DNA of 64,000 bases from Actinomycetes bacterium (GTDB taxonomy: Bacteria; Actinomycetota; Acidimicrobiia; Acidimicrobiales; SZUA-35). Shown here piece by piece: positions 22,794 through 64,000 of the stretch (its first letter is position 1; each line of letters starts with the position of its first letter). The position numbers were made by a program, and so were the translations under genes. Below the pieces are notes generated by a model. That model was not told the origin of the DNA and searched no databases. It saw only the letters and a program-made list of their open reading frames with translations. The DNA lies in NCBI GenBank assembly GCA_024280015.1, contig JAJRQY010000140.1, forward strand, positions 66,299 to 130,298, read 5' to 3'.

Positions 22794-23016
22794 GGCGGTA
22801 CCTACTGAAGTGAGTTTGTGATGATCGTTCGGGCCGGGTTTAGTATCCAGCCAGTCAGATGACTTGCGGGACAGTTGACCAGTTGGACAGTCGGTTGACC
22901 TCTTGCCAACGAACCGCATGAGGCTACTGGCAATCGCGGCCCAGGCGGTTTAATGCCCACGCGGGGTGGCGTGAGTCACTCTTTGTCATCAAGCAGATGG
23001 GGTCAGGTTGGGGTGC

Positions 23017-23862
23017 CTAGTTGATGGAGTTTTCCAGGATAAGCAGGCCATTGCTGGTGTTGGAAGTCGGAACATGGGTGGCTCGGTAGATCTCATCAAC
23101 GTGTTCATCCAGCGCGCCACGCATTACTAACCACATCACCATCTCGATGCCCTCTGACCCGGCCTCACGCATGTATTCGGTATGGCTGATCTTGGACTGG
23201 GCGACAGGATCAGCCACGATCCGGTCAAGGAACGCGTTGTCGTACTCGGTGTTGATGAGTCCGGCTCGTTCGCCCTGCAGTTGGTGGGACAAGCCGCCGG
23301 TACCGAAGATCACGACTCGTTCATTGCCGGGGAAGGACTCCACTGCTGCTCGGATGGCCCGGCCAAGGTTGAAGCAGCGATTTCCGGTTGGTGGCGGATA
23401 CTGGACCACATTCACACACAGCGGAATCACCTTGCATGGCCATTCGTCCGGCTGGTTGTACATGACCGACAACGGCACGGTCAGTCCATGGTCGACGTCC
23501 ATCTTGTTGGCGATGGTCATGTCGAACTCAGCCAGGATGAGTGATTCAGCCAGATGCCAGGCCATGTCGGGATGGCCTTGCACGGTCGGAACCTTGCGTC
23601 GCCCGAATCCTTCATCGGCGGGTATGAAGCTTGGTGCCGTGCCAATCACGAAGGTCGGGATGAGTTCGAGCGAAAAAGCCGATGCGTGGTCGTTGTAGAC
23701 GATGATGCAGACATCGGGTTTGGTCTTGGCTATCCATTCTCGGGCTGGTTCGACCTTGTCAAAGTAGGGCGCCCAGATCGGGTCTTGGGTCATGCCGTTG
23801 TCCATGGCCGCGCCAACCGCCGGTACGTGGGAGGTGCCGACTCCAGCGATGATCTCAGCCAT
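23017..23862 (-). CDS. ligB: Protocatechuate 4,5-dioxygenase beta subunit (class III extradiol dioxygenase)
   Basis: MAEIIAGVGTSHVPAVG...VYNDHASAF...GHP...THQ-type LigB motifs. 8-nt overlap with the upstream ligA. Confidence 0.85.
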   Translation of the reverse strand: MAEIIAGVGTSHVPAVGAAMDNGMTQDPIWAPYFDKVEPAREWIAKTKPDVCIIVYNDHASAFSLELIPTFVIGTAPSFIPADEGFGRRKVPTVQGHPDMAWHLAESLILAEFDMTIANKMDVDHGLTVPLSVMYNQPDEWPCKVIPLCVNVVQYPPPTGNRCFNLGRAIRAAVESFPGNERVVIFGTGGLSHQLQGERAGLINTEYDNAFLDRIVADPVAQSKISHTEYMREAGSEGIEMVMWLVMRGALDEHVDEIYRATHVPTSNTSNGLLILENSIN

Positions 23863-24271
23863 TGCTTTCACCACCCGTTGTTCGGTTGCCTTCGATGGAG
23901 CGACCACCGCTGGTCATCATGTCGGCGAATTCCTCAATGGTTACTCCCGTCATACCAGCAGCCAGGTGGCGGAAGGTCATGCCGTCATAGGCCGCCAGTT
24001 TGAAGGTGTAGTAGACGTTGCCGCCAAGTTGCAGCATGCGAAGCCATTGTCGCTTCTCGATTGATTCGCGTTGTTCGGGGGTGAAGTCCCACTGGTCCAG
24101 ATATGCAGTTTCGTCAGCGCGCATGGCCTCACGGTTTGATTCTTGGGCCAGTGACATGCAGAACATGTTGAGGGCGTATCCATCGCGGCATCGTTGCCCG
24201 TCGAACACATAGGTTCCAGGAATGCTCTCATAATCCTTGGGCGGCAATGAGCCTGGAGGGTTGGTCTGCAT
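23855..24271 (-). CDS. ligA: Protocatechuate 4,5-dioxygenase alpha subunit
   Basis: The 138-aa segment YVFDGQRCRDGYALNMFCMSL...RMLQLGGNVYYTFKLAA is typical of LigA. Lies immediately upstream of ligB. Confidence 0.8.
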   Translation of the reverse strand: MQTNPPGSLPPKDYESIPGTYVFDGQRCRDGYALNMFCMSLAQESNREAMRADETAYLDQWDFTPEQRESIEKRQWLRMLQLGGNVYYTFKLAAYDGMTFRHLAAGMTGVTIEEFADMMTSGGRSIEGNRTTGGESNG

Positions 24272-48095: not shown

Positions 48096-49079
48096 GTGGG
48101 TATGACTCGATATGGCATGTCCATTCCATTTGGTGGTACCGCTCTGGCTGAACACCGTGAGATCTACCGCGAACTGGTTGATCTTGGCTACACCGATGTG
48201 TGGTCCTCCGAGGCCGACGGAGCCGATGGCTTCACCCCCTTGGCCCTGGCCGCGGCATGGGCACCGGAGCTGAGGCTCGGCATCGCCATCATTCCGGCCT
48301 TCACCCGAGGCCCGGCCCTGATGGCCCAGAGTGTTGCCTCACTGGCCGATGCCGCTCCCGGTAACTTCGTAATGGGCTTGGGCTCATCCTCCAACGTTAT
48401 TGTCGAGCGGTGGAACGGGATTGACTTTGACGAGCCGTACAAACGAACCCGTGACATTGTTCGGTTCCTGAAAGCATCCCTGGGTGGCGAGAAGGTCACC
48501 GAGACCTATGACACCTTTGAGGTACAGGGGTTCCGCCTTGGTATCAAGCCTGCCCAACAGCCTCCCATCCTGGTAGCTGGACTAAGGCCGGGCATGTTGG
48601 CCATGGCTGGTCGCGAGGCCGACGGAGCCATCCTGAACTGGCTGTCGGCCGATGACGTCACTACTGTTGTTCCCATTGTTCAAGAGGCTGCGGCCAAGGC
48701 AGGCAAGCCAAAACCGGAGATCGTGGCCAGACTCTTTGTTTGCCCTAGCACCGACAGCGACACGGTGCGGGCCCAGGCTCGGCGTCTCATCGCCGCCTAC
48801 TTGAATGTGCCGGTCTATGCCGCCTTCCATGAGTGGTTGGGTCGAGGCGGGCAGCTGGAAGGTATGTGGAGTAACTGGGAGGCCGGGGATCGAAAAGCCG
48901 CGCTTGCCGCGATCCCTGATGAGGTGGTTGACGCCTTGGTCATTCACGGCTCGCCGGACGAATGCCGCGAGCACATTGGACGTTTCACCGAGAATGGGAT
49001 TGACACACCGGCCTTGGCCATCATGCCCTTCGCCGGGGTCGACCCTCGTGCTGCGATCCGAGACCTCGCTCCGGCCTAG
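48096..49079 (+). CDS. LLM-class F420/flavin-dependent oxidoreductase
   Basis: MTRYGMSIPF...YTDVWSSEA...LGLGSS and the overall luciferase-like pattern. Confidence 0.75.
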   Translation: MGMTRYGMSIPFGGTALAEHREIYRELVDLGYTDVWSSEADGADGFTPLALAAAWAPELRLGIAIIPAFTRGPALMAQSVASLADAAPGNFVMGLGSSSNVIVERWNGIDFDEPYKRTRDIVRFLKASLGGEKVTETYDTFEVQGFRLGIKPAQQPPILVAGLRPGMLAMAGREADGAILNWLSADDVTTVVPIVQEAAAKAGKPKPEIVARLFVCPSTDSDTVRAQARRLIAAYLNVPVYAAFHEWLGRGGQLEGMWSNWEAGDRKAALAAIPDEVVDALVIHGSPDECREHIGRFTENGIDTPALAIMPFAGVDPRAAIRDLAPA

Positions 49080-51586
49080 CGAGAAGACGGGATCCAGACC
49101 AGGAGGAAGTCCTCAATGGAGATGTCGGTTTTCTCCAACGGGATCTCAACAGACTCGATCTCGCTGACCTTGTCGGTCCACTCATCATCAATAAGGATCA
49201 GCTCTTCAGCCAGTTGCACTTCGAGTGCCTCGATGTCGTCAATCTTCTCTTCCACCCGGTGCTCGGCTGTTTCCAGTCTGGCCTTGATGGAGCTTGACTG
49301 GCGGGTACCCGAAGTGGCCCGCCGAGCCGCCGAGGCCAACGAGCGTGAGCGCTTGCGTCCCCCGAACAGGCCCCCAAGCAGGCTCGTGCCCAGGTCAATG
49401 GCAGTCTGAGTCTTGCGACCCTTGGACTGGGTCTCCAACTCCTCGACCCGGTCCTCCGCCTTGGCTAGTGCGGCGGTGAGCCGGTCGGTCTTCTTGTTCA
49501 AACGGGTCCGGATCTTCAGGATTGCTGCATCCGCACCATCCTCGGCCGCGGCCTCACAGCGGGCCGTGAACTCGTCTTCGGTTTCGCCCGGCCGGGACCA
49601 GAGCTTGAGGGGGGTGTTGTGGATGAGGGTGACAGTCTCACCGGTATAGAGCTTGTCTTTCAGCGCTCGTTTGGCCTTCTGAATGGCTGACGCCGAGAGG
49701 TCGAAGGTTGGGGACACATAGACGCCTCCGGCCGGAGCAGTCTTGCCGAAGTCCCGGTCATCAAAGTCGACATTGATCGCCAGGTCGACATCGATCCAAT
49801 CGGCGGACAAGGGGATGATTGCCTCCCATTCCTCCTTATGTCGAAGCTTTGATTTGGTGTCGTCGAACAACATATTGACCCGAGCAGCCAGAGCCGGAGC
49901 GAGACGGTGAGATCCAGCTTCTCCGTTGACATCGTCCAGCCACGGAGCCGAGTCATGCACATAGCGTGATGGCAGCGAGTCAGGTGTGGCGGGCGGGGCG
50001 GCGAATTCGTCGTCTTGTAAGGCTGTCGGCGCTACCGAAGCTGACCCTGACCCTGACCCTGACCCTGACCCTGAGCCGTCCGCTGGAGCTGGAGTCGGAG
50101 CTGATGACGAGGCCGTTGCTGCCCCGGTGGGAGTGGCGGCGTTCTGAGCGGTCGAAGCCGGTGCTGTTGGGGATGCCGGTTGGCCCAGAATTGCTTCCCG
50201 TTTTGGGTCCATCAAGGTCCCGATCTGAGACCGGGTTAGTGGTCCCGCCAGATAATTCATGGCCCACCGGGTGGTGAGCAAGGGCAGGGCGCTGGATCGG
50301 GTGGTACGCAATACAAATTGACGCTTGCCAAGGCCGCTAATCATGCGTTCGACTTCGGCAACGTCAACCGAGCCATCAGAGGCCCGCAGGCCATCGACCA
50401 ACCGATTCTTGTCTTGTTCGGTTTGCAGCCGACCAATCAGCCAGGTCCCGGTATTGCTGATTGCCTTGTAGTCAAGGTCGACCGGGTTCTGGGTTGAGAG
50501 AACCATGCCAACACCGAATGCCCGGGCCTGCTTCAACAAGGTCAGGATCGGCTTCTTGGTTGAGGGGCTCTTGGTTGGTGGTGCCAAGCCCATGACCTCA
50601 TCGATATAGACCAGGACGCGAAGCTCGCCGGTTCCAGCCTGGTTACGCATCCAGCTGATAAGCCTGGACAACACAATGGTGATAGCGAAGTGTCGCTCGG
50701 CCTCGTCCAGGTGACCGAGAGAAACAACGGCCGCCCGAGGGGTGCCGTCAGCCTTCCACAACATCGATTCGATCTCTAGCGGCGCGCCTTGGGACCAGGC
50801 GGCAAAGCTGGGAGACGCTAACAGTCCGTTGAGCTTCATGGCCAGTGCTTGGCGATCTTTGGCCGGGAAGAAGGTGTCCAGGTCAAGGATTCCGAGCTTG
50901 CGGATTGGCGGGTCCATTAGCTGACCCAGCAGGGTTGGCAGATCCATGTCGGTTCCATTGTCCCAGGACCGGATGATCAAGTTGGTCAACAAGATGTGTT
51001 CGCGGCCAGACAGGGGGTCGCTTGTCACGCCAATGAGGCTCAGGAGCCCCCCGACGGTGGCGTCAACCTCGTCCTGTCGAACGCTGGGATCGGTACTGGC
51101 GGGTACCGCCAGCCGGCCAAGAACATTCAGGGGGATTCCAGCATCACTGCCGGGGGTGTAGATCACGGGCTCGGCCGCACCGGCAAGTTGGCCGAGGTCC
51201 GACCCATCCAAGCCCCAGGACTTGAGTCCATTTGACCACATTTCGGCGGTCTTGACTGACATCTCCTGGACCGTGGTGTTGTCCACTCGAGCCGACCCGG
51301 CGTCCATCCAGGGTTCAAACTCTTGTGGGCTCAGGTTCGGGAACGTTAAGCAGAGGTTGCCGAGGTCACCTTTGGGGTCGATGGCCAGAACGGGGATACC
51401 GGAGAGCAATGCTTCTTCCAGGAGTACTACCCCAAGGCCGGTCTTGCCTGAACCCGTCATGCCAACAATGACCCCGTGGGTGGTCAGATCAGCACTGTCG
51501 ATCAGGATTGCCTCTCCCGTTCGGTCACCAGAATCTGGTTCGATTATTTCGCCTAGAGAGAGTTTTCCTGGCGTGCGTTCGGCCAC
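49076..51586 (-). CDS. HerA/YjgR(DUF853)-like P-loop NTPase with long low-complexity linker and coiled-coil C-terminal region
   Basis: Walker A GMTGSGKTG, Walker B LVYIDEV, and STQNPVDLDYKAISNTGTWLIGRLQT resembling the DUF853 signature. Preferred start is GTG 51586 (RBS AAGGTGGA). The ORF-track start is 51700. Confidence 0.7.
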   Translation of the reverse strand: MAERTPGKLSLGEIIEPDSGDRTGEAILIDSADLTTHGVIVGMTGSGKTGLGVVLLEEALLSGIPVLAIDPKGDLGNLCLTFPNLSPQEFEPWMDAGSARVDNTTVQEMSVKTAEMWSNGLKSWGLDGSDLGQLAGAAEPVIYTPGSDAGIPLNVLGRLAVPASTDPSVRQDEVDATVGGLLSLIGVTSDPLSGREHILLTNLIIRSWDNGTDMDLPTLLGQLMDPPIRKLGILDLDTFFPAKDRQALAMKLNGLLASPSFAAWSQGAPLEIESMLWKADGTPRAAVVSLGHLDEAERHFAITIVLSRLISWMRNQAGTGELRVLVYIDEVMGLAPPTKSPSTKKPILTLLKQARAFGVGMVLSTQNPVDLDYKAISNTGTWLIGRLQTEQDKNRLVDGLRASDGSVDVAEVERMISGLGKRQFVLRTTRSSALPLLTTRWAMNYLAGPLTRSQIGTLMDPKREAILGQPASPTAPASTAQNAATPTGAATASSSAPTPAPADGSGSGSGSGSGSASVAPTALQDDEFAAPPATPDSLPSRYVHDSAPWLDDVNGEAGSHRLAPALAARVNMLFDDTKSKLRHKEEWEAIIPLSADWIDVDLAINVDFDDRDFGKTAPAGGVYVSPTFDLSASAIQKAKRALKDKLYTGETVTLIHNTPLKLWSRPGETEDEFTARCEAAAEDGADAAILKIRTRLNKKTDRLTAALAKAEDRVEELETQSKGRKTQTAIDLGTSLLGGLFGGRKRSRSLASAARRATSGTRQSSSIKARLETAEHRVEEKIDDIEALEVQLAEELILIDDEWTDKVSEIESVEIPLEKTDISIEDFLLVWIPSSR
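50041..50076. repeat. Hexanucleotide microsatellite (CTGACC)x5 plus CTGAGC, encoding (GS)6 on the minus strand
   Basis: Read directly. In-frame within the ATPase linker region. Confidence 0.9.
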
Positions 51587-51739
51587 TGCTATTCCACCTT
51601 CACCTACGAGAGTTCCTAAATAACGTGTCACTAGGGTGACATGCTGGTGAGTAAATCGCACCACATGATCCAAAAGACGGCACACTAGAAGGGTTGGCAC
51701 CCCTCCTAGTGGTGACCAGATCAGAAAGAGGAGGCCATC

Positions 51740-52270
51740 ATGGGCTTTATGGACACAATCAAAGGACTATTCGGCAAGGCCAGCGGAGCAGCAGGAGACG
51801 CTGCTTCCAAGGCTTCTGGCGCCGCCGGATCCGCAGCCAGCAAGGCTGGCGAAGCTGCCGGTGGTGTTGCCGGCAAGGCCGGAGACGCCGCTTCGAAGGC
51901 AACTGGAGCTGCTGGTAAGGCGACCGGAGTCGCAACTGGTGCTGCTACAGGAGCCGCTGGCGCTGCAGCTGGAGCCGCTGGTAAGGCGACCGACGCTGCT
52001 GGTGATGCTGCTTCGAAGGCAACTGGAGCTGCTGGTGGTGTCGGTGACAAGGCTGGCGGCGTGCTTGGCGGAATTACTGACAAGGCTGGAGACCTGGCCA
52101 GCAAGGCTGGGGATATCGCCGGAGATGTCCGTGAAACCGTTGGTGGAGTAGTCGAAGGAGCCGTCGACAAGGCTGCTGATGTTGCTGATTCTGCCACCAA
52201 GGGCAAGTTCACCGACAAGATCGACAAGGTCCGTGACGTTGCCGACAAGATTGACGGCGAAGAGGGCTGA
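51740..52270 (+). CDS. Rv0909/MT0933-like 'antitoxin'-domain protein with expanded Ala/Gly/Lys-rich repeats
   Basis: The N-terminus MGFMDTIKGLFGKA and the C-terminus ATKGKFTDKIDKVRDVADKIDGE resemble the MT0933-like family as I recall it. The centre is about 12 KAxxAAGxxxx repeats. Confidence 0.55.
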   Translation: MGFMDTIKGLFGKASGAAGDAASKASGAAGSAASKAGEAAGGVAGKAGDAASKATGAAGKATGVATGAATGAAGAAAGAAGKATDAAGDAASKATGAAGGVGDKAGGVLGGITDKAGDLASKAGDIAGDVRETVGGVVEGAVDKAADVADSATKGKFTDKIDKVRDVADKIDGEEG

Positions 52271-52331
52271 TTCGCCTTCGCTATTGGCCAGCTTCTCATG
52301 GCTTGGGCCACAAATCTAGGTGTAGCTGAGG

Positions 52332-55421: not shown

Positions 55422-56321
55422 TTAGGTCCACTGTCCCATCAGCTTGGCAAACTCGTCTGCTGGACTAGCAGGGACGATGTAGCCCTCTTCGTTATTGATC
55501 GCGTCCCAGTCATCACGAACAGTCTCGACGGTGATGTCCTGGCCCCGAGCGGTGCCTTCGGTTAAGCCAATGAAGTACTTGGCGATGGTTCCACCAGCGG
55601 CGGAGTAGACGCAACCTGTGGTCTCGCAGTCTTCATGAGCCAGGTAAACAACCACGGGGGTAACCAGCCTTGGGTCAAGCTGCTCGGACATGGCGCCAAG
55701 CAATTCTTCGGTCATGCGGGTTTTGGCTACCGGAGCAATGGCGTTGGCCCGGATGTTGTACTTGGCTCCTTCTTGGGCCAGAACTCGGGTGAAGCCGACA
55801 AGGCCCATCTTGGCTGCGCCATAGTTGGCCTGACCAAAGTTGCCGAGCAGACCCGAGCTGGACGATGTGTTGACAATGGCTCCCGATCCTTGCTCGCGCA
55901 TGCGGATCCAGGCTGGCTGGGTGACATACATGGCACCACGCAGATGAACGTCGAGGACCAGAGTCATCATCTCTTCGGTCATATTGTGGAAGCTCTTGTC
56001 TCGCAAGATTCCGGCATTGTTCACCACAATGTCTATCTGACCAAAGGCGTCTATTGCGGTCTGCACGATGGCTTCGCCGCCTTCCTTGGAAGCAACAGAG
56101 TCTCCATTGGCTACAGCCTCGCCACCAATGGCTTCAATTTCCGCCACGACTTCCTCGGCTGGGCTCTTGGAACCGTCGCCGGTGCCGTCCACCGAGCCAC
56201 CAAGGTCGTTGACAACAACTCGGGCGCCCCGGCGGGCAAATTCCAGAGCATGTTCACGGCCGAGACCGCCACCAGCACCAGTGATGATTACTACTTTTCC
56301 TTCAAATCCGAGTTCTGCCAT
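55422..56321 (-). CDS. SDR family oxidoreductase (MFE-2-type 3-hydroxyacyl-CoA dehydrogenase-like)
   Basis: GKVVIITGAGGGLGREHALEFARRGARVVVNDLGG, NNAGI, and the YGAAK catalytic motif. Start at ATG 56321. Confidence 0.85.
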   Translation of the reverse strand: MAELGFEGKVVIITGAGGGLGREHALEFARRGARVVVNDLGGSVDGTGDGSKSPAEEVVAEIEAIGGEAVANGDSVASKEGGEAIVQTAIDAFGQIDIVVNNAGILRDKSFHNMTEEMMTLVLDVHLRGAMYVTQPAWIRMREQGSGAIVNTSSSSGLLGNFGQANYGAAKMGLVGFTRVLAQEGAKYNIRANAIAPVAKTRMTEELLGAMSEQLDPRLVTPVVVYLAHEDCETTGCVYSAAGGTIAKYFIGLTEGTARGQDITVETVRDDWDAINNEEGYIVPASPADEFAKLMGQWT

Positions 56322-56439
56322 CATTCTCTCCGCTTGTGACCCCAAAGGGGGTTGTTTGTCCGATGGCGTGAGCATAGATCGGTCAAGGGAGAACGAGCCA
56401 GATCAGGACTTGAAGTTCCTCGTCCTCTCGTTGGACGGA

Positions 56440-57477
56440 TCAGTTCTCGTCTGGTTCGGGCAGCCCGATGCAGACCATGCATTGTTGCTCAAAGGATGTG
56501 GCCAGGGCGGCTTCTCGGTCGGCTTCGGATTGGTAGGTTGGTTGATCATTGCGAGGGGTTCGGGTGTCGCCACCCGTTGACGCACTGGTTCCCTCAACAG
56601 TGGGTGAATGTTTGGCATCTTGACCTTGTCGGGTCCAAGACAAGGGATCCTGCTTCCAGTCGTCGTCAATCCAGCGATAGGGGAGTTGGGTCAGACCTGG
56701 CTCGGTCATGGTTAGTGCCGCCTGTAGTGCGTCGACAAGAATCGATCGTTGGGTTGGGGCATCCGCCATCGGACCAGACGTGTGGCCAAGCGGTACATCG
56801 AGGAAGGCGGTTCTTGGAGGGTTGGCCCGTTCGGTGATGGAACGAGCAGAAGATAGGCCAATGGTGGGGAAGCCGTTGGCTTCGAGGTGACGTGCGATCA
56901 GACCGACCGACTGGTGGCAAACCGGTCAAACGGGCACCAGCAGCACGAGGTCGGGTTCTTGCGCTTTCACCTGGGCAAGTATGTGCTCGGCAGTCTCGGC
57001 CATCAGTCGTCTGGTCGAGTAGATGCCGCCCATGAACCCGACAGCCTGGGGTGCCACCGCTGCGATGGTTCCGTCCTCGGCCAGATCCCGCAACCGGTCA
57101 AGGGGAAAGACACAGTTTGGATCCTGGGAAGCATCGGTCCAGTCATAAGCGAAATGGTTGATTCGCAAGTCGGCGGACGGCGTTTCAGCGGGGATCAGGC
57201 GGATGGAGGTGTCGTCCTTGGTGTGGAGGGCGACCTGGCCTCGCACATAGATCCCTCCCGAACCAATCAGCATGACGGTGCATTCGGACAAGGGCTTGTC
57301 AACGGGAACGAAGGCTGGTGTCTCGCTCCGCTCGGCCCAGGCATAGTCGGGGTAACCGAGACCTCCATACAATTTCTTGGTTTCAGCGATGTAGTCCGGG
57401 GCCGGCAGCGCCGATAATCCGGCAAGGACCTCACCGATAGTTCCTGGTGTCTCCGTTGTGTTACTCATCTGGCTCAC
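56440..57477 (-). CDS. GrdB/PrdB-family (glycine/sarcosine/betaine/D-proline reductase component B-like) protein, predicted selenoprotein with in-frame UGA at codon 184
   Basis: ORFs 56926..57477 and 56440..56769 are in the same frame, and I found no other stop between them. My translation across the junction is DLVLLVPV-U-PVCHQSVGLIARHLEANGFPTIGLSSARSITERANPPRTAFLDVPLGHTSGPM. The TGA falls in a U-x-x-C redox motif and the downstream sequence remains protein-like. Confidence 0.7.
56926..56928 (-). other. Predicted selenocysteine (UGA) codon
   Basis: The only stop in an otherwise open 346-codon frame. It sits at the first position of UPVC. Confidence 0.65.
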
Positions 57478-57490
57478 TTATTTGGATCGT

Positions 57491-59146
57491 CTAATCGAGG
57501 TCCGGGGCGTTCTCCGCCGCATAGGTGGACCATTTTTTGTAGTCAATCTTGCCATTGGCGGCTCGAGTTAAGGACTCAACCAGCAAGATCTGCTTGGGGG
57601 CCTTGTAGTGAGCGAGTGATCCCTTGACGTGATCAATGAGTTCGGTTGGGTCAACAGTGGAACCCGCACGATTCTCGACTACAGCGACGACGCGCTGGCC
57701 GAACCGGTCGTCGGGCACGCCGACCGCGATGGCGTCTTCGACATCTTCACTGGTCTTGAGCGCTTCTTCGACCTCTTCAGGGAACACCTTCTCGCCACCG
57801 GTATTGATACAAACGGAGCCTCGGCCGAGCAGGCTGATGGTGCCATCAGCCTCAACCGTTGCGTAGTCACCGGGAAGTGAATAGCGGACCCCATTGATGG
57901 TGGGGAAGGTTGCTTCGGTCTTGGCTTCATCCTTGTAGTAACCGACCGGCAATGTGCCCTGCACACCCAGGCGACCGAGGTCGCCGGATCCTGGCTTGAC
58001 CAGTTCGCCGTCGTCTCGAATAACCACTGCTCGATCTCCAAGGTCGAATTTGGCGGTAGTGGAGATGTTCTCTTTGGTGGAGAAGCTGGCCCCCATCCCA
58101 AGAGCCTCTGATGAGCTGAGGGCGTCATAGATCATCATGGTTGGCATATGGTCCAGCAAGCGTTCCTTGATGTCCTGGCTCCACATGACACCGGAGCTCA
58201 TGATGAGTTTGACCGAGGACAGGTCCCAATGATCAGGGTTGGCATCGAGCGCTTCCAGGATCGGTCGGGCGAACACGTCACCAACGATGACCAAGTTAGA
58301 CACCGAGTTGTTTTCGATGGCGGTCAGCAATTCGTCAACGTCATAGGCGCGCTGGGTCAAGGTCACAACCGTGCCGCCTTGGGTGAGTTGGCTGAGGCTG
58401 GTGATCTGACCGGTTCCGTGCATAAGGGGGGCACCAGGAAGGCCAACCGGACCAGCGGAGTCAGCCAAGGTGGCTCGCCACTGCTCCATCGTGACGTCGG
58501 GCCCGAGGGGGAGCGGATGAGTACGCGATCCCAACATGAGTAGGTCATGCTGGGTCCACATGACGCCCTTTGGCATGCCGGTTGTTCCGCCGGTGTACAA
58601 GAACCACAGATCGTCTCCTGAGCGGCCCCATGCAGCAGAAACGTTGTCCTCGGTGCCAGCAGCGCACGCGTCTTCCCAGGGCGTGGCCCATTCGGGGCAT
58701 GGCTCAGAGCCGTCCTCGACATGCAGCCAAAGCTTGACCTTGGGGCATCGCTCGCGGATGGTCTCGATAGTCGGCGTGAAGATGCCATGGAACATGACAA
58801 CGGCGGCATCGGAGTTGTCCCAAAGATAGAGCAACTCGTTCTCGGCGTAGCGGTAGTTGGTGTTGACGGGAACCAGAGAATCCTTGAAGCAGGCGAATAC
58901 GCCCTGCAAGTACTCTGGGCAGTTGTAGAGGTACTGGGCGACCTTGTCTTGGCGTTCGACCCCGGCATCCAGCATGGTCTTGGCCAGGCCGTTGGCTCGA
59001 CGATTGAAGTCAGTCCAGCTGATCTTGTCGTCGCCGTGTATCTGGGCCAGTTTGTCACCCCGCACTTCGGCACAGGTTTCCCACAGGTCTGCGTAGTTCC
59101 ATCCGGTCATAGGCACGGTGTAGCCGATGAGTGAGTCATCCGTCAC
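57491..59146 (-). CDS. Acyl-CoA synthetase (AMP-binding, FadD-like)
   Basis: LYTGGTTGMPKGVMW AMP-binding motif. GDYA...DGT and the C-terminal KAP...GKIDY motifs. Start is GTG 59146 or ATG 59110. Confidence 0.85.
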   Translation of the reverse strand: MTDDSLIGYTVPMTGWNYADLWETCAEVRGDKLAQIHGDDKISWTDFNRRANGLAKTMLDAGVERQDKVAQYLYNCPEYLQGVFACFKDSLVPVNTNYRYAENELLYLWDNSDAAVVMFHGIFTPTIETIRERCPKVKLWLHVEDGSEPCPEWATPWEDACAAGTEDNVSAAWGRSGDDLWFLYTGGTTGMPKGVMWTQHDLLMLGSRTHPLPLGPDVTMEQWRATLADSAGPVGLPGAPLMHGTGQITSLSQLTQGGTVVTLTQRAYDVDELLTAIENNSVSNLVIVGDVFARPILEALDANPDHWDLSSVKLIMSSGVMWSQDIKERLLDHMPTMMIYDALSSSEALGMGASFSTKENISTTAKFDLGDRAVVIRDDGELVKPGSGDLGRLGVQGTLPVGYYKDEAKTEATFPTINGVRYSLPGDYATVEADGTISLLGRGSVCINTGGEKVFPEEVEEALKTSEDVEDAIAVGVPDDRFGQRVVAVVENRAGSTVDPTELIDHVKGSLAHYKAPKQILLVESLTRAANGKIDYKKWSTYAAENAPDLD

Positions 59147-59168
59147 ATCGAGACGGGGTACTCATCGG

Positions 59169-60860
59169 TTAATCCCGTTCTTGGGAGAGCGCTTGAGCGG
59201 CCGCGTAGTCCGTCCAGCGTTGATAGCTGATCTTCCCGTTGGCCGCCCGTTCAAGCGAATCGACGACGAGGACCAGGCGAGGTGCCTTGTAGTGAGCAAG
59301 ATCGGACTTGACCTGGTTGATGGCCGCTTTGGTGTCCAAACCAGCTGGCGCATGAACAACCGCAGCAACTGTTTGGCCAAATCGGTCGTCGGGAATACCA
59401 ACGACGATGGCGTCACGGACTGTGTCTACGCGTTTGAGTGCTTCTTCTACTTCTTCGGGGAACACCTTCTCGCCCGCGGTGTTGATGCAGACTGAGCCTC
59501 GTCCCAACAGGTTGATGGTTCCGTCGTTCTCAATGGTGGCGTAGTCGCCGGGAATGGAGTATCGGATGCCGTTGACCGTCGGAAACGTGACGGCTGTTTT
59601 GGCGTCATCCTTGTAGTACCCAATCGGGGTGTGGCCCTGGACGCCGATTCTTCCGACGACTCCAGACCCGGGAACGACCAGGCTGCCATCGTCGTCGATG
59701 ACAACAGCGTTGACACTGAGCTTGAACGAAGCGGTGGCGGCGGCGGAGTCTTTGGAAGACACCGACGAGCCAACACCAAGAGCTTCCGATGACCCGTAAG
59801 CGTCGACGAGGATGAGCCGCGGATAGTGACCCAGAATGCCCTTCTTTGTCTCATTGCTCCAGATCACGCCGCTGGACAAGATGACGCGGAGTGAGGACAG
59901 GTCCCATCGGTCCGGCTCAGAATCGAGAGCATCAAGGATGGGGCGAGCAAAGGCGTCACCGACGATGAAGATGCTCTTGACTTGCTGGGCGGCGATGGTT
60001 TCCAACAACTCGGCAATGGAGAGCTTTCGTTCGGTCAGGGTGATAATCGAGCCTCCGAGCGAGAGGCTGTTGGCGCTATTGATCAAGCCGGTCCCGTGCA
60101 TCAGGGGGCAGGCGGGAATGCTGGCCGGTCCTGGTCGAGAAAGAACTCGGTCGCGTACCGCAGGAGAAAATCGCTCGCCTGTGCTGGCCTGCTCATGATC
60201 TGGTTTGGCCGGCAGACTGTCGCCGTTTGGACCATCGACGACCAGGAACAGATCGTCTTGACGCCACATGACACCTTTTGGCATCCCGGTTGTTCCTCCG
60301 GTGTAGATCAGAACGAGGTCATCACCACTCCGACCTTGCCGGCATCGAACAGCCCCGTCGGAAGGCGTGCCGCCGGCAACCCTGCTATCGGTACTTGTGG
60401 TGACCGCCTGCTCATAGGGAGTGGCCCAGTCAGGGCAGGGCCCGGATTGGTCGTCGACCCAGAGCCAGGTGTGGATCTTTGGAACTTCGCTTCGGAGGGA
60501 TTCGATGGTCTGAGTGAAGGCCCCATGAAAGACAACGGCGACGACATCGGCGTCCTCCCACAGATATGTCAACTCGTCCGGGCCGTAGCGATAGTTGGTG
60601 TTGACGTGAACAAGAGATGCTTTAGAGCACGCGTAGAACGTCTCCAAGTACTCAGGTCCGTTGTAGAGGAAGAACGCGACCTTGGCCTGATGGCCGCAAC
60701 CAGCGTTGAGAAGAAACTGAGCCAAGCAGTTGGCTCGATCGTCGAATTGCTGCCAAGTAACCGAGTGTTCGCCGTGCAGGAGAGCGGGTTTGCTTGGTTG
60801 GAGTTTGGCGAGAGTTTCCCAGATGTCGGCGTAAGTCCAGCCGGTTTCAACTTGCTTCAT
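59169..60860 (-). CDS. Acyl-CoA synthetase (AMP-binding, FadD-like), tandem paralog
   Basis: IYTGGTTGMPKGVMW. Collinear similarity to the downstream paralog from TGWTYADIWE to GKISYQRW. Start at ATG 60860. Confidence 0.85.
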   Translation of the reverse strand: MKQVETGWTYADIWETLAKLQPSKPALLHGEHSVTWQQFDDRANCLAQFLLNAGCGHQAKVAFFLYNGPEYLETFYACSKASLVHVNTNYRYGPDELTYLWEDADVVAVVFHGAFTQTIESLRSEVPKIHTWLWVDDQSGPCPDWATPYEQAVTTSTDSRVAGGTPSDGAVRCRQGRSGDDLVLIYTGGTTGMPKGVMWRQDDLFLVVDGPNGDSLPAKPDHEQASTGERFSPAVRDRVLSRPGPASIPACPLMHGTGLINSANSLSLGGSIITLTERKLSIAELLETIAAQQVKSIFIVGDAFARPILDALDSEPDRWDLSSLRVILSSGVIWSNETKKGILGHYPRLILVDAYGSSEALGVGSSVSSKDSAAATASFKLSVNAVVIDDDGSLVVPGSGVVGRIGVQGHTPIGYYKDDAKTAVTFPTVNGIRYSIPGDYATIENDGTINLLGRGSVCINTAGEKVFPEEVEEALKRVDTVRDAIVVGIPDDRFGQTVAAVVHAPAGLDTKAAINQVKSDLAHYKAPRLVLVVDSLERAANGKISYQRWTDYAAAQALSQERD

Positions 60861-60927
60861 CTGTGGAGCATGCTCGAAAGAGATCACTTCGGGCAACACG
60901 ACGGCCGAAAAGTGGGAGGATACATCG

Positions 60928-63900
60928 GTGAACAAACCGATCAAGAAGCTTCTCGTTGCTAACCGGGGCGAGATCGCCATCCGCATATTCCGAGCGGCCT
61001 ATGAGCTTGGAATCGAAACAGTCGCCATTTTCACCTGGGAGGATCGCCAATCGCTGCATCGACTCAAGGCCGATGAGGCTTACCAGATCGGAACGGTTGG
61101 CCACCCGTTGCGGCCATATCTTGACATCGACGAGATCATTCGAGCGGCACTGGCCGCCGATGCCGATGCGGTGCATCCTGGCTATGGCTTCTTGTCTGAA
61201 AGCCCAGAGCTTGCCGATGCCTGTGTCGCAGCAGGGCTTGTCTTTGTCGGACCACCGGGTCAGGTTTTGCGGTTGTGCGGCAACAAGATGAGGGCCCGGG
61301 CGCTGGCCTATGCCGCCGGTGTCCCTGTGCTGCAGCAATCCGAAGAGGTCACCGCGGAAACGGCGCTGGCCGCAGCCGAGCCGATTGGCTTTCCGATTTT
61401 CGTGAAGGCGGCCTCGGGTGGCGGTGGGCGAGGACTCAGGCGGGTTGATGATCCGGCCGACCTTTCAGCCGCGGTTGCGATGGCGCGTCGCGAAGCAGAA
61501 ACGGCTTTTGGAGACCCCACCGTCTTCTTGGAACAAGCCGTCATTGAACCTCGCCATATTGAGGTGCAGCTTGTTGGCGATGGTGAGGAGATTGTCCATC
61601 TCTTCGAGCGGGACTGTTCGGTTCAGAGGCGGCATCACAAGGTGGTTGAGATCGCGCCAGCGCCAAACCTTGATCCGGCGATTCGTGACCAGATGTGTTC
61701 TGAGGCGGTGAAGTTTGGGCATCACATCGGCTATGTCAACGCCGGAACCGTTGAGTTCTTGTTGCAGCAGGATGGTTCGTTTGTCTTTATTGAGATGAAT
61801 CCGCGCATCCAGGTTGAACACACGGTGACAGAGGAGACAACAGGAGTTGACCTGGTTCGTACCCAGATTCGGATTGCTGCCGGCGAATCCTTAGCCGGCG
61901 TTGGGCTGACGCAGGATTCGATACATCAGCAAGGTGCGGCACTGCAGTGTCGTATCACCACCGAAGATCCGGCCAACGACTTTCGGCCTGACACTGGCCG
62001 GATTCTGGCTTTTCGTCAGCCTGGTGGGGCCGGCATTCGCCTGGACGGCGGCGGCGGGTATTCCGGTGCGGAGATCACCCCATACTTCGATTCCCTCCTG
62101 ACCAAGCTCACGTGCCGAGGTCAGACTTTTGACGAGGCGGTTGCCCGATCCCGCCGAGCATTGGCTGAATTTCGTGTTCGTGGTCCTGCGACCAATATCG
62201 CCTTCATTCAGGGGGTCCTGGATTCCGAAGAGTTCAAGGCCGGGGGAGTAACAACCTCGTTCATCCAACGTCATCCTGAACTACTGAAAGCGAAGGAGGG
62301 CGGAGACCGGGCAACCAAGCTGCTTCGTTGGCTCGGTGACGTAACGGTGAATCGCCCCAACGGTGAAGGTCAGGGATGTGAGGATCCGACGAGCAAGTTG
62401 CCGCCCCGGCCGACGGTGGAGCCGGTTGCTGGTTCGAAACAGCGTCTGGACGAACTCGGCCCCGAAGCCTTTGCTACCTGGATGCGTCAATCGAAGCAAC
62501 TCCTGGTTACCGACACCACACTACGAGACGCCCACCAGTCAATCTTGGCCACCCGGGTCCGGACCTTTGACCTGGTAGCTGGGGCGCGGCATGTCGCCCA
62601 TCGCAGCCCCGGCCTGCTGAGCCTGGAATGCTGGGGTGGAGCGACCTATGACGTTGCGCTCCGCTTCTTACATGAGGATCCGTGGGAGCGTCTGGAGCGG
62701 CTTCGCGCTGCTGCTCCAAATATCTGTCTGCAGATGTTGTTGCGTGGCCGCAATACCGTTGGCTACTCGGCTTACCCCGATGTGGTGGCCGAGCGTTTCG
62801 TGGCCGAGGCGCACCGAACGGGAGTCGATATCTTCCGAGTATTTGATGCCCTCAACTCCGTGGAGCAGATGAAGCCAGCCATCGATGCCGTTGGGTCCGT
62901 CGGGGCGATTGCCGAAGGAACCCTTTGTTACACCGGCAATCTGGAAGACCCCACCGAGACCCTCCACACCCTTGACTACTACATGGGCATTGCCGAGCAA
63001 TTGGTTGAATCCGGCGTCCATGTGCTGTGTATCAAGGACATGGCTGGGCTCTTGCGACCTGGGGCCGCGCATCGTCTGGTTACTGCCTTGCGTGAACAGT
63101 TCAGCCAGATACCCGTGCATCTGCACACCCACGACACTGCTGGTGGGCAACTGGCGACCTACCTATCTGCATCCATGGCTGGAGTCGATGCCATTGATGC
63201 CGCGGCAGCACCATTGTCGGGGATGACCTCGCAGCCTTCCATTGCCGCGGTAGCCGCAGCTTTTGAGCATTCTGACGTCGAACCGGCGATCAGCCTGGAC
63301 GGCCTCGGCTTCTTGGAGCCGTTCTGGGAGGCCACCCGGCGGGTGTATGCCCCATTTGAGGCTGGCCTGTCCGCGCCGACCGGAACCGTCTACCAGCACG
63401 AAATCCCCGGGGGTCAGCTCTCAAACCTGCGCCAACAGGCGATTGCGGTTGGCCTCGGTGAACGGTTCGAGGACATCGAAGTGCTGTACGCGGCCTGTGA
63501 CCAGATGCTTGGTCGCATCATCAAGGTCACACCAACCTCCAAGGTGGTCGGTGATCTGGCCCTACAGTTGGCCGCCTCGGGACTCACTGTTGCTGATCTG
63601 GTGGCTGATCCCGCTTCCACCGATCTTCCTGACAGTGTGGTTGGGTTCCTCCACGGCGAACTGGGTGAGCCAGCGGCTGGATTTCCCGAACCATTCCGCT
63701 CGGCCGCTCTTGTTGGTCGACGGCCGCGGTCGACTCCGGAATCCTTGAGCGACGAGGACCTGCAAGCACTGGCTGGACCTGACGTTCGTGCTGCCCTCAG
63801 TCGCTTGCTCTTCCCCAAACCCTTCGCCAGCTTTGAAGAACATATTGAGGACTACGGCCAGCTGTCTCGACTCTCCAGCGACCTCTTCCTCTATGGGCTT

Positions 63901-64000
63901 GAGGTCGGGCAGCAAGATGTTTCCATCAGTTTGGAGCGCGGCGTTCAGCTTCTGGTTGGGCTTGATGCCATTGGCGAACCCGATGAGCGGGGTATGCGAC
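60928..64000 (+). CDS. pyc: Pyruvate carboxylase (5' portion; continues beyond the right edge)
   Basis: Not in the ORF track because no stop falls in the window. GTG 60928 follows RBS GGGAGGA. The translation starts VNKPIKKLLVANRGEIAIRIFRAAYELGIETVAIF (biotin carboxylase domain). It continues through the carboxyltransferase domain (LLVTDTTLRDAHQS...CIKDMAGLL...HLHTHDTAG). Confidence 0.92.
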   Translation, partial: MNKPIKKLLVANRGEIAIRIFRAAYELGIETVAIFTWEDRQSLHRLKADEAYQIGTVGHPLRPYLDIDEIIRAALAADADAVHPGYGFLSESPELADACVAAGLVFVGPPGQVLRLCGNKMRARALAYAAGVPVLQQSEEVTAETALAAAEPIGFPIFVKAASGGGGRGLRRVDDPADLSAAVAMARREAETAFGDPTVFLEQAVIEPRHIEVQLVGDGEEIVHLFERDCSVQRRHHKVVEIAPAPNLDPAIRDQMCSEAVKFGHHIGYVNAGTVEFLLQQDGSFVFIEMNPRIQVEHTVTEETTGVDLVRTQIRIAAGESLAGVGLTQDSIHQQGAALQCRITTEDPANDFRPDTGRILAFRQPGGAGIRLDGGGGYSGAEITPYFDSLLTKLTCRGQTFDEAVARSRRALAEFRVRGPATNIAFIQGVLDSEEFKAGGVTTSFIQRHPELLKAKEGGDRATKLLRWLGDVTVNRPNGEGQGCEDPTSKLPPRPTVEPVAGSKQRLDELGPEAFATWMRQSKQLLVTDTTLRDAHQSILATRVRTFDLVAGARHVAHRSPGLLSLECWGGATYDVALRFLHEDPWERLERLRAAAPNICLQMLLRGRNTVGYSAYPDVVAERFVAEAHRTGVDIFRVFDALNSVEQMKPAIDAVGSVGAIAEGTLCYTGNLEDPTETLHTLDYYMGIAEQLVESGVHVLCIKDMAGLLRPGAAHRLVTALREQFSQIPVHLHTHDTAGGQLATYLSASMAGVDAIDAAAAPLSGMTSQPSIAAVAAAFEHSDVEPAISLDGLGFLEPFWEATRRVYAPFEAGLSAPTGTVYQHEIPGGQLSNLRQQAIAVGLGERFEDIEVLYAACDQMLGRIIKVTPTSKVVGDLALQLAASGLTVADLVADPASTDLPDSVVGFLHGELGEPAAGFPEPFRSAALVGRRPRSTPESLSDEDLQALAGPDVRAALSRLLFPKPFASFEEHIEDYGQLSRLSSDLFLYGLEVGQQDVSISLERGVQLLVGLDAIGEPDERGMR

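What the first reader, a model, noticed from the sequence alone, without database searches (positions are those of the whole stretch)
56440..57477. A hidden selenoprotein: two ORF-track fragments form one GrdB/PrdB-family gene interrupted by a single UGA in a U-x-x-C motif
The 183-aa ORF 56926..57477 ends at a TGA, and the 109-aa ORF 56440..56769 lies in the same frame. I translated the 156 nt between them and found no other stop. The junction reads LVLLVPV-[TGA]-PVCHQSVGLIARHLEANGFPTIGLSSARS...FLDVPLGHTSGP. From memory, the glycine/sarcosine/betaine/D-proline reductase B family (Pfam GRDB) has a Sec or Cys at the first position of exactly such a (U/C)xxC redox motif. Standard ORF callers would report a truncated protein plus a spurious fragment, or a pseudogene. 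Selenoproteins are uncommon in actinobacteria, and the function of orphan GrdB-like proteins outside Stickland fermenters is unknown.
Basis: partly seen in the sequence, partly recalled or inferred. Interest (0 to 1): 0.85.

Follow-up and report, generated by a model that had tools for sequence, protein, structure and literature searches.

The report
Mis-split PrdB-like selenoprotein gene
Two apparent gene fragments are really one 345-residue enzyme gene whose internal TGA encodes selenocysteine; this kind of selenoprotein is already known from ocean metagenomes and gene callers routinely truncate it, but its function is still unknown.

Summary
Window 57477..56440 (- strand) is one 345-codon frame with a single internal TGA (codon 184) in the motif V-U-P-V-C-H-Q. 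The NCBIfam PrdB model matches across the junction. All 80 closest species-level relatives (Acidimicrobiia, Binatia) carry TGA at this codon. All 27 more distant relatives (Proteobacteria, Desulfobacterales) carry TGC or TGT. Sequence after the TGA evolves as coding sequence, and TGA is a normal stop elsewhere in the window. Four related MAGs also encode a Sec-type SelD.

The kind is not new. "Proline reductase PrdB" (pfam07355, UxxC) has been listed among the most abundant marine selenoprotein families since 2005. This gene is not a true D-proline or glycine reductase subunit: it scores below the equivalog cut-offs, no PrdA/GrdE/GrdA/PrdC partner lies nearby, and it has extra N- and C-terminal regions.

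My additions: a C-terminal CxxC tail occurs in 66 of 81 Sec forms and in none of 27 Cys forms; neighbours are enriched in CoA-thioester enzymes; synonymous codons around the UGA are strongly constrained. The window's own SECIS is not cleanly resolved, and the source genome's selABC genes could not be checked.

The parts
56440..57477 (-). Full-length PrdB-like selenoprotein gene: 345 codons plus a terminal TGA stop at 56440-56442. Start is GTG at 57477; an alternative ATG lies at codon 4.
   Evidence: Single frame with one internal TGA. 80% identical over residues 2-345 to L001, an Acidimicrobiales MAG, which has TGA at the same codon.
56926..56928 (-). Sec codon UGA (codon 184), first position of the U-P-V-C motif.
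   Evidence: TGA in 80/80 Acidimicrobiia- and Binatia-type loci; TGC/TGT in 27/27 proteobacterial and Desulfobacterales loci. Close database homologues all end at ...LVLLVPV.
56917..56919 (-). Cys187, the presumed resolving cysteine of the UxxC motif, followed by invariant His188.
   Evidence: C187 nearly invariant and H188 invariant in the 53-sequence alignment A4.
56668..57321 (-). PrdB/GrdB-like core domain (residues 53-270).
   Evidence: TIGR04483, 157 bits, E=5e-46, model positions 17-235 of 238. PF07355, 28.6 bits, above its cut-off of 22. AF2 model of Cys homologue P0005 has pLDDT 92.6, with the U/C site between a beta-strand and the N-terminus of a helix.
56897..56915 (-). Candidate SECIS 'hairpin B' position: 7 bp plus GGUCG loop, starting 11 nt after the UGA. 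In the window it is degenerate, with C.A and U.U mismatches.
   Evidence: In relatives it is stable (z -2.9 to -3.6) and has 3 pairs with double changes and a covariation score above 500/500 shuffles. In the window it is not stable (-5.5 kcal/mol, z 0.09).
56892..56937 (-). Alternative extended 'hairpin A' that encloses the UGA in its 5' arm; favoured in the window's CAC/GGU codon type.
   Evidence: Mean E(A) is -11.1 kcal/mol in the C/T type and -1.7 in the T/A type. There is no covariation above shuffles, and the window's z is only -0.49.
56515..56571 (-). Conserved C-terminal motif G-D-T-R-T-P-R-x3-P-x-Y-Q-x3-D-R (residues 303-321).
   Evidence: Seen in nearly all Sec-form tails and in Desulfobacterales-type Cys forms.
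56470..56481 (-). C-terminal CxxC (Cys333-Met-Val-Cys336), proposed intramolecular redox relay.
   Evidence: CxxC occurs in the last 40 residues of 66/81 Sec forms and 0/27 Cys forms.
55422..56375 (-). Downstream co-directional SDR oxidoreductase, 65 nt after the stop; possible operon partner.
   Evidence: adh_short E=2e-43. Orthologues 73-95% identical lie 1-4 genes downstream on the same strand in about 24 Acidimicrobiia-type loci.
57491..60986 (-). Two tandem AMP-binding acyl-CoA synthetase-like genes directly upstream on the same strand (57491-59146 and 59169-60986).
   Evidence: PF00501 and PF13193. Present near the gene in 15 of about 66 Acidimicrobiia-type loci.

Best explanation
The region is one gene for a 345-residue selenocysteine-containing protein of the GrdB/PrdB superfamily. 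It belongs to an orphan 'PrdB-like' subfamily with the motif V-U-P-V-C-H-Q. It is not a subunit of a canonical D-proline or glycine reductase.

Shown: codon 184 is an in-frame UGA. It is conserved as UGA in all close relatives and replaced by Cys codons in distant ones. The downstream frame is under protein-coding constraint. TGA is an ordinary stop elsewhere in the window, including at the end of this gene.

Inferred: SelB with Sec-tRNA(Sec) reads this UGA, guided by mRNA structure just downstream. In relatives that structure is a compact hairpin 11 nt after the UGA with a GU-containing loop. In the window's codon variant the structure is unclear.

Inferred from the family's chemistry (PMC11229817): Sec184 acts as the nucleophile that cleaves a C-N or C-X bond next to a carboxyl or thioester. 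Cys187 then resolves the adduct as a selenenylsulfide.

My hypothesis: the conserved C-terminal Cys333-x-x-Cys336 tail, found only in Sec forms, re-reduces the active site and is in turn reduced by a cellular thiol system. The substrate is probably linked to acyl-CoA metabolism, given the neighbouring genes. The enzyme probably works without a PrdA-type pyruvoyl subunit.
For: - Single in-frame TGA, 345 codons.
- The TIGR04483 PrdB model spans the junction at E=5e-46; PF07355 scores above its gathering cut-off.
- Twelve close database homologues (43-65% identical to the query) all end at ...LVLLVPV, while full-length homologues at 42-46% identity read LVP[VM]CPVCHQS.
- TGA in 80/80 loci and TGY in 27/27 loci. 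L001 is 80% identical through the TGA.
- Differences downstream of the TGA by codon position are 938/549/1860. Window stop codons are TGA 22, TAG 20, TAA 11, and the gene itself ends in TGA.
- Synonymous constraint around the UGA: Gly+8 is GGC in 0/81 against a 52% background; Ala+11 is GCA in 64% against 9%; Val-1 is GTT in 69% against 12%.
- Hairpin B shows covariation and is stable in relatives. The same GU-loop type of hairpin follows the UGA of Sec-type SelD in the same clade.
- A Sec-type SelD lies 5 kb from the gene in L100, and also occurs in the same MAGs as L037, L066 and L051.
- CxxC tail in 66/81 Sec forms and 0/27 Cys forms.
- Recurrent neighbours are an SDR, a crotonase, acyl-CoA synthetases and, beside Cys forms, a CoA-transferase III. 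None is PrdA, GrdE, GrdA or PrdC.
- In the AF2 model the U/C site sits at a strand-to-helix junction.
Against: - The window holds no tRNA-Sec, SelA, SelB or SelD. Its SelB-like hit is TypA. The source genome's machinery is therefore unverified.
- The window's own downstream RNA is no more stable than shuffled or synonymously resampled sequence, and no Rfam family matches.
- The functional steps (substrate, the relay role of the CxxC tail, independence from PrdA) rest on inference only.
- Synteny is partial: SDR in about 40% of loci, acyl-CoA synthetases in about 23%. The Binatia SDR is not orthologous, at 25-28% identity.
- A PrdA-like partner encoded elsewhere in the genome cannot be excluded.
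Confidence: 0.9

Rival explanations
1. It is the PrdB subunit of a genuine D-proline (or glycine/betaine-type) reductase, and its PrdA/GrdE pyruvoyl partner and electron-transfer proteins are encoded elsewhere in the genome.
For: The best family match is the PrdB equivalog model. JGI names fragments 'D-proline reductase (dithiol) PrdB'. The UxxC motif is shared with PrdB (PMC13188914).
Against: The score of 157 bits is far below the 300-bit equivalog cut-off, and the GrdB/F/H scores are far below theirs. No PrdA, GrdE, GrdA or PrdC appears among recurrent neighbours in 109 loci, whereas prd and grd genes are normally operonic (PMC13188914, PMC11229817). The protein has extra conserved N-terminal (~50 aa) and C-terminal (~75 aa) regions. 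I infer that the hosts (Acidimicrobiia, Binatia, Bordetella) are not Stickland fermenters.
Confidence: 0.06
2. It is a pseudogene or a truly truncated gene: translation stops at the TGA and the downstream part is a decaying remnant.
For: Gene callers and public annotation report only 172-202 aa fragments. The window's local RNA fold is unexceptional.
Against: The TGA is conserved in 80/80 species-level genomes from two phyla. The downstream 161 codons stay open in frame and change mostly at third codon positions. The downstream half holds invariant family residues H188, R196, E199 and R222.
Confidence: 0.02
3. The TGA is read through as a standard amino acid (Trp, Cys or Gly, by near-cognate decoding or an altered genetic code), or it is an assembly error for TGC.
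For: Cys is the aligned residue in distant homologues.
Against: TGA ends 22 of 53 long ORFs in the window, including this gene, so the code is standard. The same TGA in 80 independent assemblies rules out error. Sec-type SelD genes in the same MAGs show that the clade decodes UGA as Sec.
Confidence: 0.02

Closest known systems
Environmental 'proline reductase PrdB' selenoproteins of the Sargasso Sea and GOS metagenomes (Zhang, Fomenko & Gladyshev 2005, PMC1088965; Zhang & Gladyshev 2008, PMC2398784)
   Same: pfam07355 domain, UxxC redox motif with Sec first, Cys-containing homologues, and presence in non-clostridial environmental bacteria. There were 42 Sec genes in the Sargasso Sea data, and 235 Sec and 110 Cys genes in GOS.
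   Different: I could not compare sequences directly with those sets, so identity of subfamily is likely but not shown. Those papers name the family after D-proline reductase. They do not mention, in the passages I read, the C-terminal CxxC tail, the lack of PrdA, or the taxonomic assignment to Acidimicrobiia and Binatia.
D-proline reductase subunit PrdB of Clostridioides difficile / Acetoanaerobium sticklandii (TIGR04483; PMC11229817)
   Same: Homologous core (E=5e-46), with Sec at the equivalent position of a UxxC motif. The expected chemistry is Sec attack on the alpha-carbon followed by resolution by the nearby Cys.
   Different: It scores 157 bits against a 300-bit cut-off. It is 345 aa, against about 240 aa (25.7 kDa) for PrdB. 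No prdA, prdH, prdC, prdD, prdE or prdF lies nearby. It has an added conserved N-terminal segment and a C-terminal tail with CxxC.
Glycine/sarcosine/betaine reductase protein B (GrdB, GrdF, GrdH; PF07355, TIGR01917/01918)
   Same: Same superfamily, with Sec in a UxxC motif.
   Different: Only 27-35 bits against cut-offs of 65-800. GrdB has UxxCxxC (PMC13188914), whereas here the motif is U-P-V-C-H-Q with no third Cys. No grdA or grdE is adjacent.
C-terminal redox tails that shuttle electrons to or from a buried redox centre (for example the Gly-Cys-Sec-Gly tail of mammalian thioredoxin reductase); an analogy from general knowledge
   Same: A flexible C-terminal dithiol or selenolthiol pair next to a main redox site. 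This is a resemblance in how it may work, not homology.
   Different: Here Sec is in the core site and the tail is CxxC. The relay role is my inference from the Sec-form-specific distribution and has not been tested.

Membership tests
Bacterial selenoprotein gene (Sec-UGA) | In-frame UGA aligned to Cys in homologues (a Sec/Cys pair) | tested here: met
   TGA in 80/80 close loci; TGC/TGT in 27/27 distant loci. Cys in full-length proteins P0001-P0006, P0017, P0037 and P0047.
Bacterial selenoprotein gene (Sec-UGA) | The reading frame downstream of the UGA is conserved as protein | tested here: met
   161 open codons follow the UGA. Differences by codon position are 938/549/1860. Identity to L001 is 80% through the UGA.
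Bacterial selenoprotein gene (Sec-UGA) | SECIS stem-loop just 3' of the UGA (PMC9312934); from my recollection of the bSECISearch model, the apical loop lies about 16-37 nt downstream and contains G | tested here: inconclusive
   Relatives have a stable, covarying hairpin 11 nt after the UGA with a GGUCG or GUG loop. The window's copy has two mismatches and is not stable (z 0.09). The alternative long hairpin has no covariation. Synonymous constraint is strong. There is no Rfam match.
Bacterial selenoprotein gene (Sec-UGA) | selA, selB, selC and selD present in the same genome | not testable with these tools
   None is in the 64-kb window, and the rest of the source genome cannot be read. Indirect support: Sec-type SelD occurs in four MAGs that carry the same Sec-form gene, and selABCD have been reported in Actinomarinales (bioRxiv 10.64898/2026.04.03.716425).
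GrdB/PrdB superfamily (Pfam PF07355 GRDB) | Score at or above the Pfam gathering cut-off | tested here: met
   28.6 bits against a cut-off of 22, over residues 61-180. The broader NCBIfam subfamily model TIGR01918 is not reached (31.5 against 65.45).
GrdB/PrdB superfamily (Pfam PF07355 GRDB) | Sec or Cys at the first position of a (U/C)xxC motif at the conserved site | tested here: met
   U184-P-V-C187. C184 and C187 are nearly invariant in alignment A4.
D-proline reductase PrdB (TIGR04483 equivalog) | Score at or above the equivalog cut-off (300 bits) | tested here: not met
   157 bits.
D-proline reductase PrdB (TIGR04483 equivalog) | Encoded with prdA (pyruvoyl proprotein), prdH and prdC, as needed for activity (PMC11229817) | tested here: not met
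   The window neighbours are acyl-CoA synthetases, an SDR, PAP2 and SpoU. None of the recurrent neighbour clusters I annotated in the 109 loci is PrdA-, PrdC- or PrdH-like. Presence elsewhere in the genome was not testable.
Glycine/sarcosine/betaine reductase protein B (GrdB/GrdF/GrdH) | Model score at or above the cut-off; UxxCxxC motif; adjacent grdA/grdE | tested here: not met
   27-35 bits against cut-offs of 602-800. The motif is UPVCHQS with no third Cys. No GrdA or GrdE lies nearby.
Marine 'PrdB' selenoprotein family of Zhang & Gladyshev | pfam07355 hit plus a UxxC Sec motif in environmental bacteria | tested here: met
   Both listed criteria are met (PMC2398784 Table 2). Direct sequence identity with their set was not tested.

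The most novel reading that the evidence does not exclude
This is a stand-alone, PrdA-independent selenoenzyme. It would have its own intramolecular CxxC electron relay and act in acyl-CoA-linked metabolism of aerobic Acidimicrobiia and Binatia. It would also be the same family that has been listed for twenty years as one of the most abundant ocean selenoproteins under the probably wrong name 'proline reductase'. If so, it carries out a reductive bond cleavage not yet described.
Probability: 0.3. Interest if true: 0.6.

Novelty: new member of a known kind. Interest (0 to 1): 0.35.

Why it matters
Practically, it shows that gene callers and public annotation truncate this gene at the Sec codon in whole clades. 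NCBI and JGI list only 172-202 aa fragments, so Acidimicrobiia and Binatia proteomes systematically lack the catalytic half of the enzyme.

Scientifically, the family is abundant in the environment and still has no known substrate. Three observations give concrete handles for biochemistry:
- no PrdA-type partner is encoded nearby;
- the CxxC tail is specific to Sec forms;
- the neighbours are CoA-thioester enzymes.

The basic fact, a PrdB-type UxxC selenoprotein with Cys homologues, has been in the literature since 2005, so a specialist would not be surprised by it.

Tried and rejected
- **Rfam:** gathering thresholds on the whole window, and permissive thresholds on 56780-57000, gave no SECIS or any other RNA family.
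- **ARAGORN:** no tRNA-Sec in the window or in 60 related loci.
- **SelB in the window:** the weak SelB-like hit at 20946-22919 is TypA/BipA.
- **Other selenoprotein genes in the window:** a scan for in-frame TGAs with redox motifs found only noise apart from this gene.
- **RNA structures:** the long hairpin A and the shifted hairpin C show no covariation above shuffled controls. RNAalifold keeps only 6 pairs.
- **Solved structures:** the PDB sequence search found nothing, and the Foldseek search of the AF2 model found no meaningful match (best TM 0.36).
- **Structure prediction:** I modelled Cys homologue P0005 instead, so the position of the CxxC tail relative to the active site could not be modelled.
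- **Cross-phylum SDR linkage:** rejected as orthology, because the Binatia SDR is only 25-28% identical.
- **SelD scan:** I ran no further search on SelA for the same reason.
- **Literature:** searching for 'PrdB-like' and 'GrdB-like' found only Synergistota fluoroacetate papers, not this subfamily.

Full report
**Observation.** The - strand of window 56440-57477 reads as one 345-codon frame with a single internal stop. That stop is a TGA at 56926-56928, codon 184. The 156 nt between them hold no other stop, and the junction peptide is exactly as quoted: LVLLVPV-TGA-PVCHQSVGLIARHLEANGFPTIGLSS. The gene ends in a second TGA at 56440-56442 that does act as a stop.

**Family.** With Cys written for the TGA, the NCBIfam D-proline reductase PrdB model (TIGR04483) aligns to residues 53-270, across the junction. 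The score is 157 bits at E=5e-46, below the 300-bit equivalog cut-off. GrdB, GrdF and GrdH models score only 27-35 bits. Pfam GRDB (PF07355) passes its gathering score over residues 61-180. The protein is therefore a PrdB-like member of the GrdB/PrdB superfamily and not an equivalog of any characterised reductase subunit.

**Sec/Cys pair.** A search of 5.8 billion proteins returned two classes of hit.
- Twelve closer hits (43-65% identical to the query) are 189-281 aa long, and each ends at ...LVLLVPV or a near variant.
- The more distant hits (42-46% identical) are 288-316 aa long and read LVP[VM]CPVCHQS.

At DNA level, the closest genome locus is L001, an Acidimicrobiales MAG chromosome (OZ245048.1). 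It is 80% identical over residues 2-345 and has TGA at the same codon. A profile scan of one genome per species found 211 relatives. The best 80 are 64 Acidimicrobiia-type and 16 Binatia-type loci, and all carry TGA at this codon. The 27 loci from Desulfobacterales, Syntrophaceae and Alpha/Betaproteobacteria, including Bordetella bronchiseptica, carry TGC or TGT. This is the classical signature of a selenoprotein.

**Controls.**
- TGA is the commonest ordinary stop in the window (22 TGA, 20 TAG and 11 TAA among ORFs of at least 150 aa), so the genetic code is not reassigned.
- In the 59 codons after the TGA, differences between the window and 60 relatives fall at codon positions 1, 2 and 3 as 938, 549 and 1860. 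That is a coding pattern at least as constrained as upstream, where the counts are 1129, 1066 and 2009.
- The downstream half carries the family's invariant residues H188, R196, E199 and R222.

Pseudogene, sequencing error and code change are therefore excluded.

**Sec machinery.** The window has no tRNA, no Rfam hit and no SelA or SelD. Its one SelB-like hit is TypA. The source genome could not be read beyond the window. Indirect evidence is good, however.
- L100, an Acidimicrobiales MAG, encodes SelD 5 kb from its PrdB-like gene. It passes the equivalog cut-off (328 bits against 125).
- That SelD is itself a selenoprotein: it reads HGAG-TGA-ACK where E. coli has HGAGCGCK.
- A SelD scan found Sec-type SelD in three more MAGs that also carry the Sec-form gene: BC2.78 (L115 with L037), metabat_bins.134 (L114 with L066) and MFD09779.bin.2.52 (L128 with L051). 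Nearly all Acidimicrobiales SelD genes found were Sec-type.
- Full selD-selA-selB-selC clusters appeared in Pseudonocardia and in one Actinomycetota MAG.
- A 2026 preprint reports selABCD in all Actinomarinales genomes.

**SECIS.** Synonymous sites around the UGA are strongly constrained.

| Codon | At this site in the 81 Sec forms | Elsewhere in the same genes |
|---|---|---|
| Gly +8 | GGC 0/81 | GGC 52% |
| Ala +11 | GCA 64% | GCA 9% |
| Val -1 | GTT 69% | GTT 12% |
| Leu +9 | CTG 98% | CTG 37% |

- About half the sequences, including all Binatia, form a compact hairpin that starts 11 nt after the UGA. Examples are AUCAGUC-GGUCG-GACUGAU and AUCAGUCC-GUG-GGACUGAU.
- This hairpin is stable (z -2.9 to -3.6).
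- It shows compensatory changes such as ACCAGACC-GUG-GGUUUGGU. Three pairs have double changes, and the covariation score exceeds 500 of 500 shuffles.
- A hairpin with the same kind of GU-containing loop, and much covariation by eye, follows the UGA of the Sec-type SelD genes of the clade.
- The window belongs to a second codon type. The third bases of His+4 and Gly+8 associate strongly: C/T 38, T/A 29, C/A 2 (Fisher p=4e-12, not corrected for phylogeny).
- In the window's type the compact hairpin has C.A and U.U mismatches and is not stable (z 0.09).
- A longer hairpin that encloses the UGA is favoured instead (mean -11.1 against -1.7 kcal/mol). It has no covariation above controls. In the window it is no more stable than shuffled or synonymously resampled sequence.

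I therefore regard the window's own SECIS as unresolved.

**What kind of enzyme.** True D-proline reductase needs PrdB (Sec151) bound to the pyruvoyl subunit PrdA. PrdA is matured by PrdH, and the complex is regenerated by PrdC. None of these is near the gene, and neither are GrdA or GrdE.
- The window neighbours are two AMP-binding acyl-CoA synthetases upstream, and an SDR, a PAP2 phosphatase and a SpoU methylase downstream.
- Across 109 loci the recurrent neighbours are:
  - an orthologous SDR (73-95% identical, about 24 Acidimicrobiia loci);
  - a crotonase (23 loci);
  - acyl-CoA synthetases (15 loci);
  - an FAD-binding oxidoreductase (PF01494, 22 loci);
  - in Binatia, NuoF, NuoG-like, ExoIII-like, a non-orthologous SDR and a glyoxalase-family gene;
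  - beside the proteobacterial Cys forms, a family III CoA-transferase (17 of 27 loci).
- The CoA-thioester theme is suggestive, but linkage is only partial.
- The protein has a conserved ~50-residue N-terminal segment and a ~75-residue C-terminal tail that PrdB lacks.
- The tail carries a GDTRTxR...PxYQ...D motif. A terminal CxxC follows it in 66 of 81 Sec forms, and several of the 15 exceptions are cut by contig ends. The CxxC is present in none of the 27 Cys forms.
- An AlphaFold model of Cys homologue P0005 (pLDDT 92.6, pTM 0.93) places the U/C residue between a beta-strand and the N-terminus of a helix.
- No solved structure resembles the fold.

My working model is a stand-alone reductase. 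Sec184 attacks the substrate, Cys187 forms the selenenylsulfide, and the C-terminal dithiol re-reduces it. Only the sequence features are shown. The chemistry is inferred.

**Novelty.** Zhang, Fomenko and Gladyshev (2005) listed 'proline reductase PrdB' (UxxC) as the third most abundant selenoprotein family of the Sargasso Sea, with 42 genes. Zhang and Gladyshev (2008) counted 235 Sec and 110 Cys forms in GOS under pfam07355. Later reviews keep listing D-proline reductase (TIGR04483, UxxC). Public annotation recognises the family but truncates the gene: NCBI has a 177-aa 'selenoprotein B family protein' and JGI a 172-aa 'PrdB'. The window gene is therefore a new member of a known kind.

The following may be unreported, although I cannot be sure from the library searched:
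- the taxonomic picture, with the Sec form universal in Acidimicrobiia and Binatia relatives;
- the absence of PrdA nearby;
- the Sec-form-specific CxxC tail;
- the two SECIS codon states.

**Verdict.** The finding is right as an observation and as an interpretation. Confidence that this is a real Sec-encoding gene is about 0.9. Interest is modest at 0.35, because the phenomenon and the family are established. The open question is the function of this abundant orphan subfamily.

Noticed in passing
L100:12318-13373 (- strand); also L112, L114-L121, L127, L128, L133, L135, L138 and L140, near position 10040 of each locus: SelD is itself a selenoprotein in nearly all Acidimicrobiales MAGs sampled (HGAG-TGA-[AG]CK). 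Two conserved hairpins follow the UGA. The second (GGCGCAG-GUC-CUGCGCC type) shows many compensatory changes by eye.
   Followed up: partly
L123-L126, L130, L136, L137, L139: Compact selD-selA-selB-tRNA-Sec clusters occur in Pseudonocardia species and one Actinomycetota MAG. In the Acidimicrobiales loci the sel genes are not clustered with selD.
   Followed up: partly
window 57491-59146 and 59169-60986 (- strand): Two tandem paralogous AMP-binding acyl-CoA synthetase-like genes lie directly upstream of the selenoprotein gene on the same strand, only 13 nt from its start.
   Followed up: partly
window 51721-52311 (-) / 51740-52270 (+): This is a low-complexity, repeat-rich stretch. The + strand ORF encodes a 176-aa Ala/Gly/Lys/Asp-rich protein with repeated 'GAAGxAASKA(T/S)GAAG' units, and the - strand carries a mirror ORF rich in Ala and Pro.
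   Followed up: no
window 49076-51700 (- strand): An 874-aa HerA/DUF87-like ATPase has an internal (Gly-Ser)6 run and a long charged coiled C-terminal part. It is conserved near the locus in 27 of 80 Sec loci at about 74% identity.
   Followed up: no
window 16527-20024 (+), 20946-22919 (-), 23017-23907 (-): These are an error-prone DnaE2-type polymerase, TypA/BipA, and a class III extradiol (protocatechuate 4,5-dioxygenase beta-like) dioxygenase. The TypA gene is what produced the weak SelB-like hit.
   Followed up: yes
window 60928-64000 (+ strand): A pyruvate carboxylase-like gene (biotin carboxylase plus carboxyltransferase domains) runs off the end of the window, divergent from the acyl-CoA synthetase genes.
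   Followed up: partly
L028, L099, L101: MAGs labelled 'uncultured Enterobacteriaceae' (binchicken assemblies) carry Binatia-like or Burkholderiales-like versions of the gene. The taxonomic labels look wrong.
   Followed up: no
L097 and L103, downstream of the TGA: The C-terminal parts of these two Sec-form genes diverge from the family and lack the tail motif. This may reflect frameshifts or assembly errors.
   Followed up: no
L002-L028 (Cys forms), for example L020, 2.5 kb downstream of the gene: In Burkholderiales, including Bordetella bronchiseptica, the Cys form sits beside a family III CoA-transferase (17 of 27 loci) and often a TctC-type tricarboxylate-binding protein. This looks like a small conserved catabolic cluster of unknown substrate.
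   Followed up: partly
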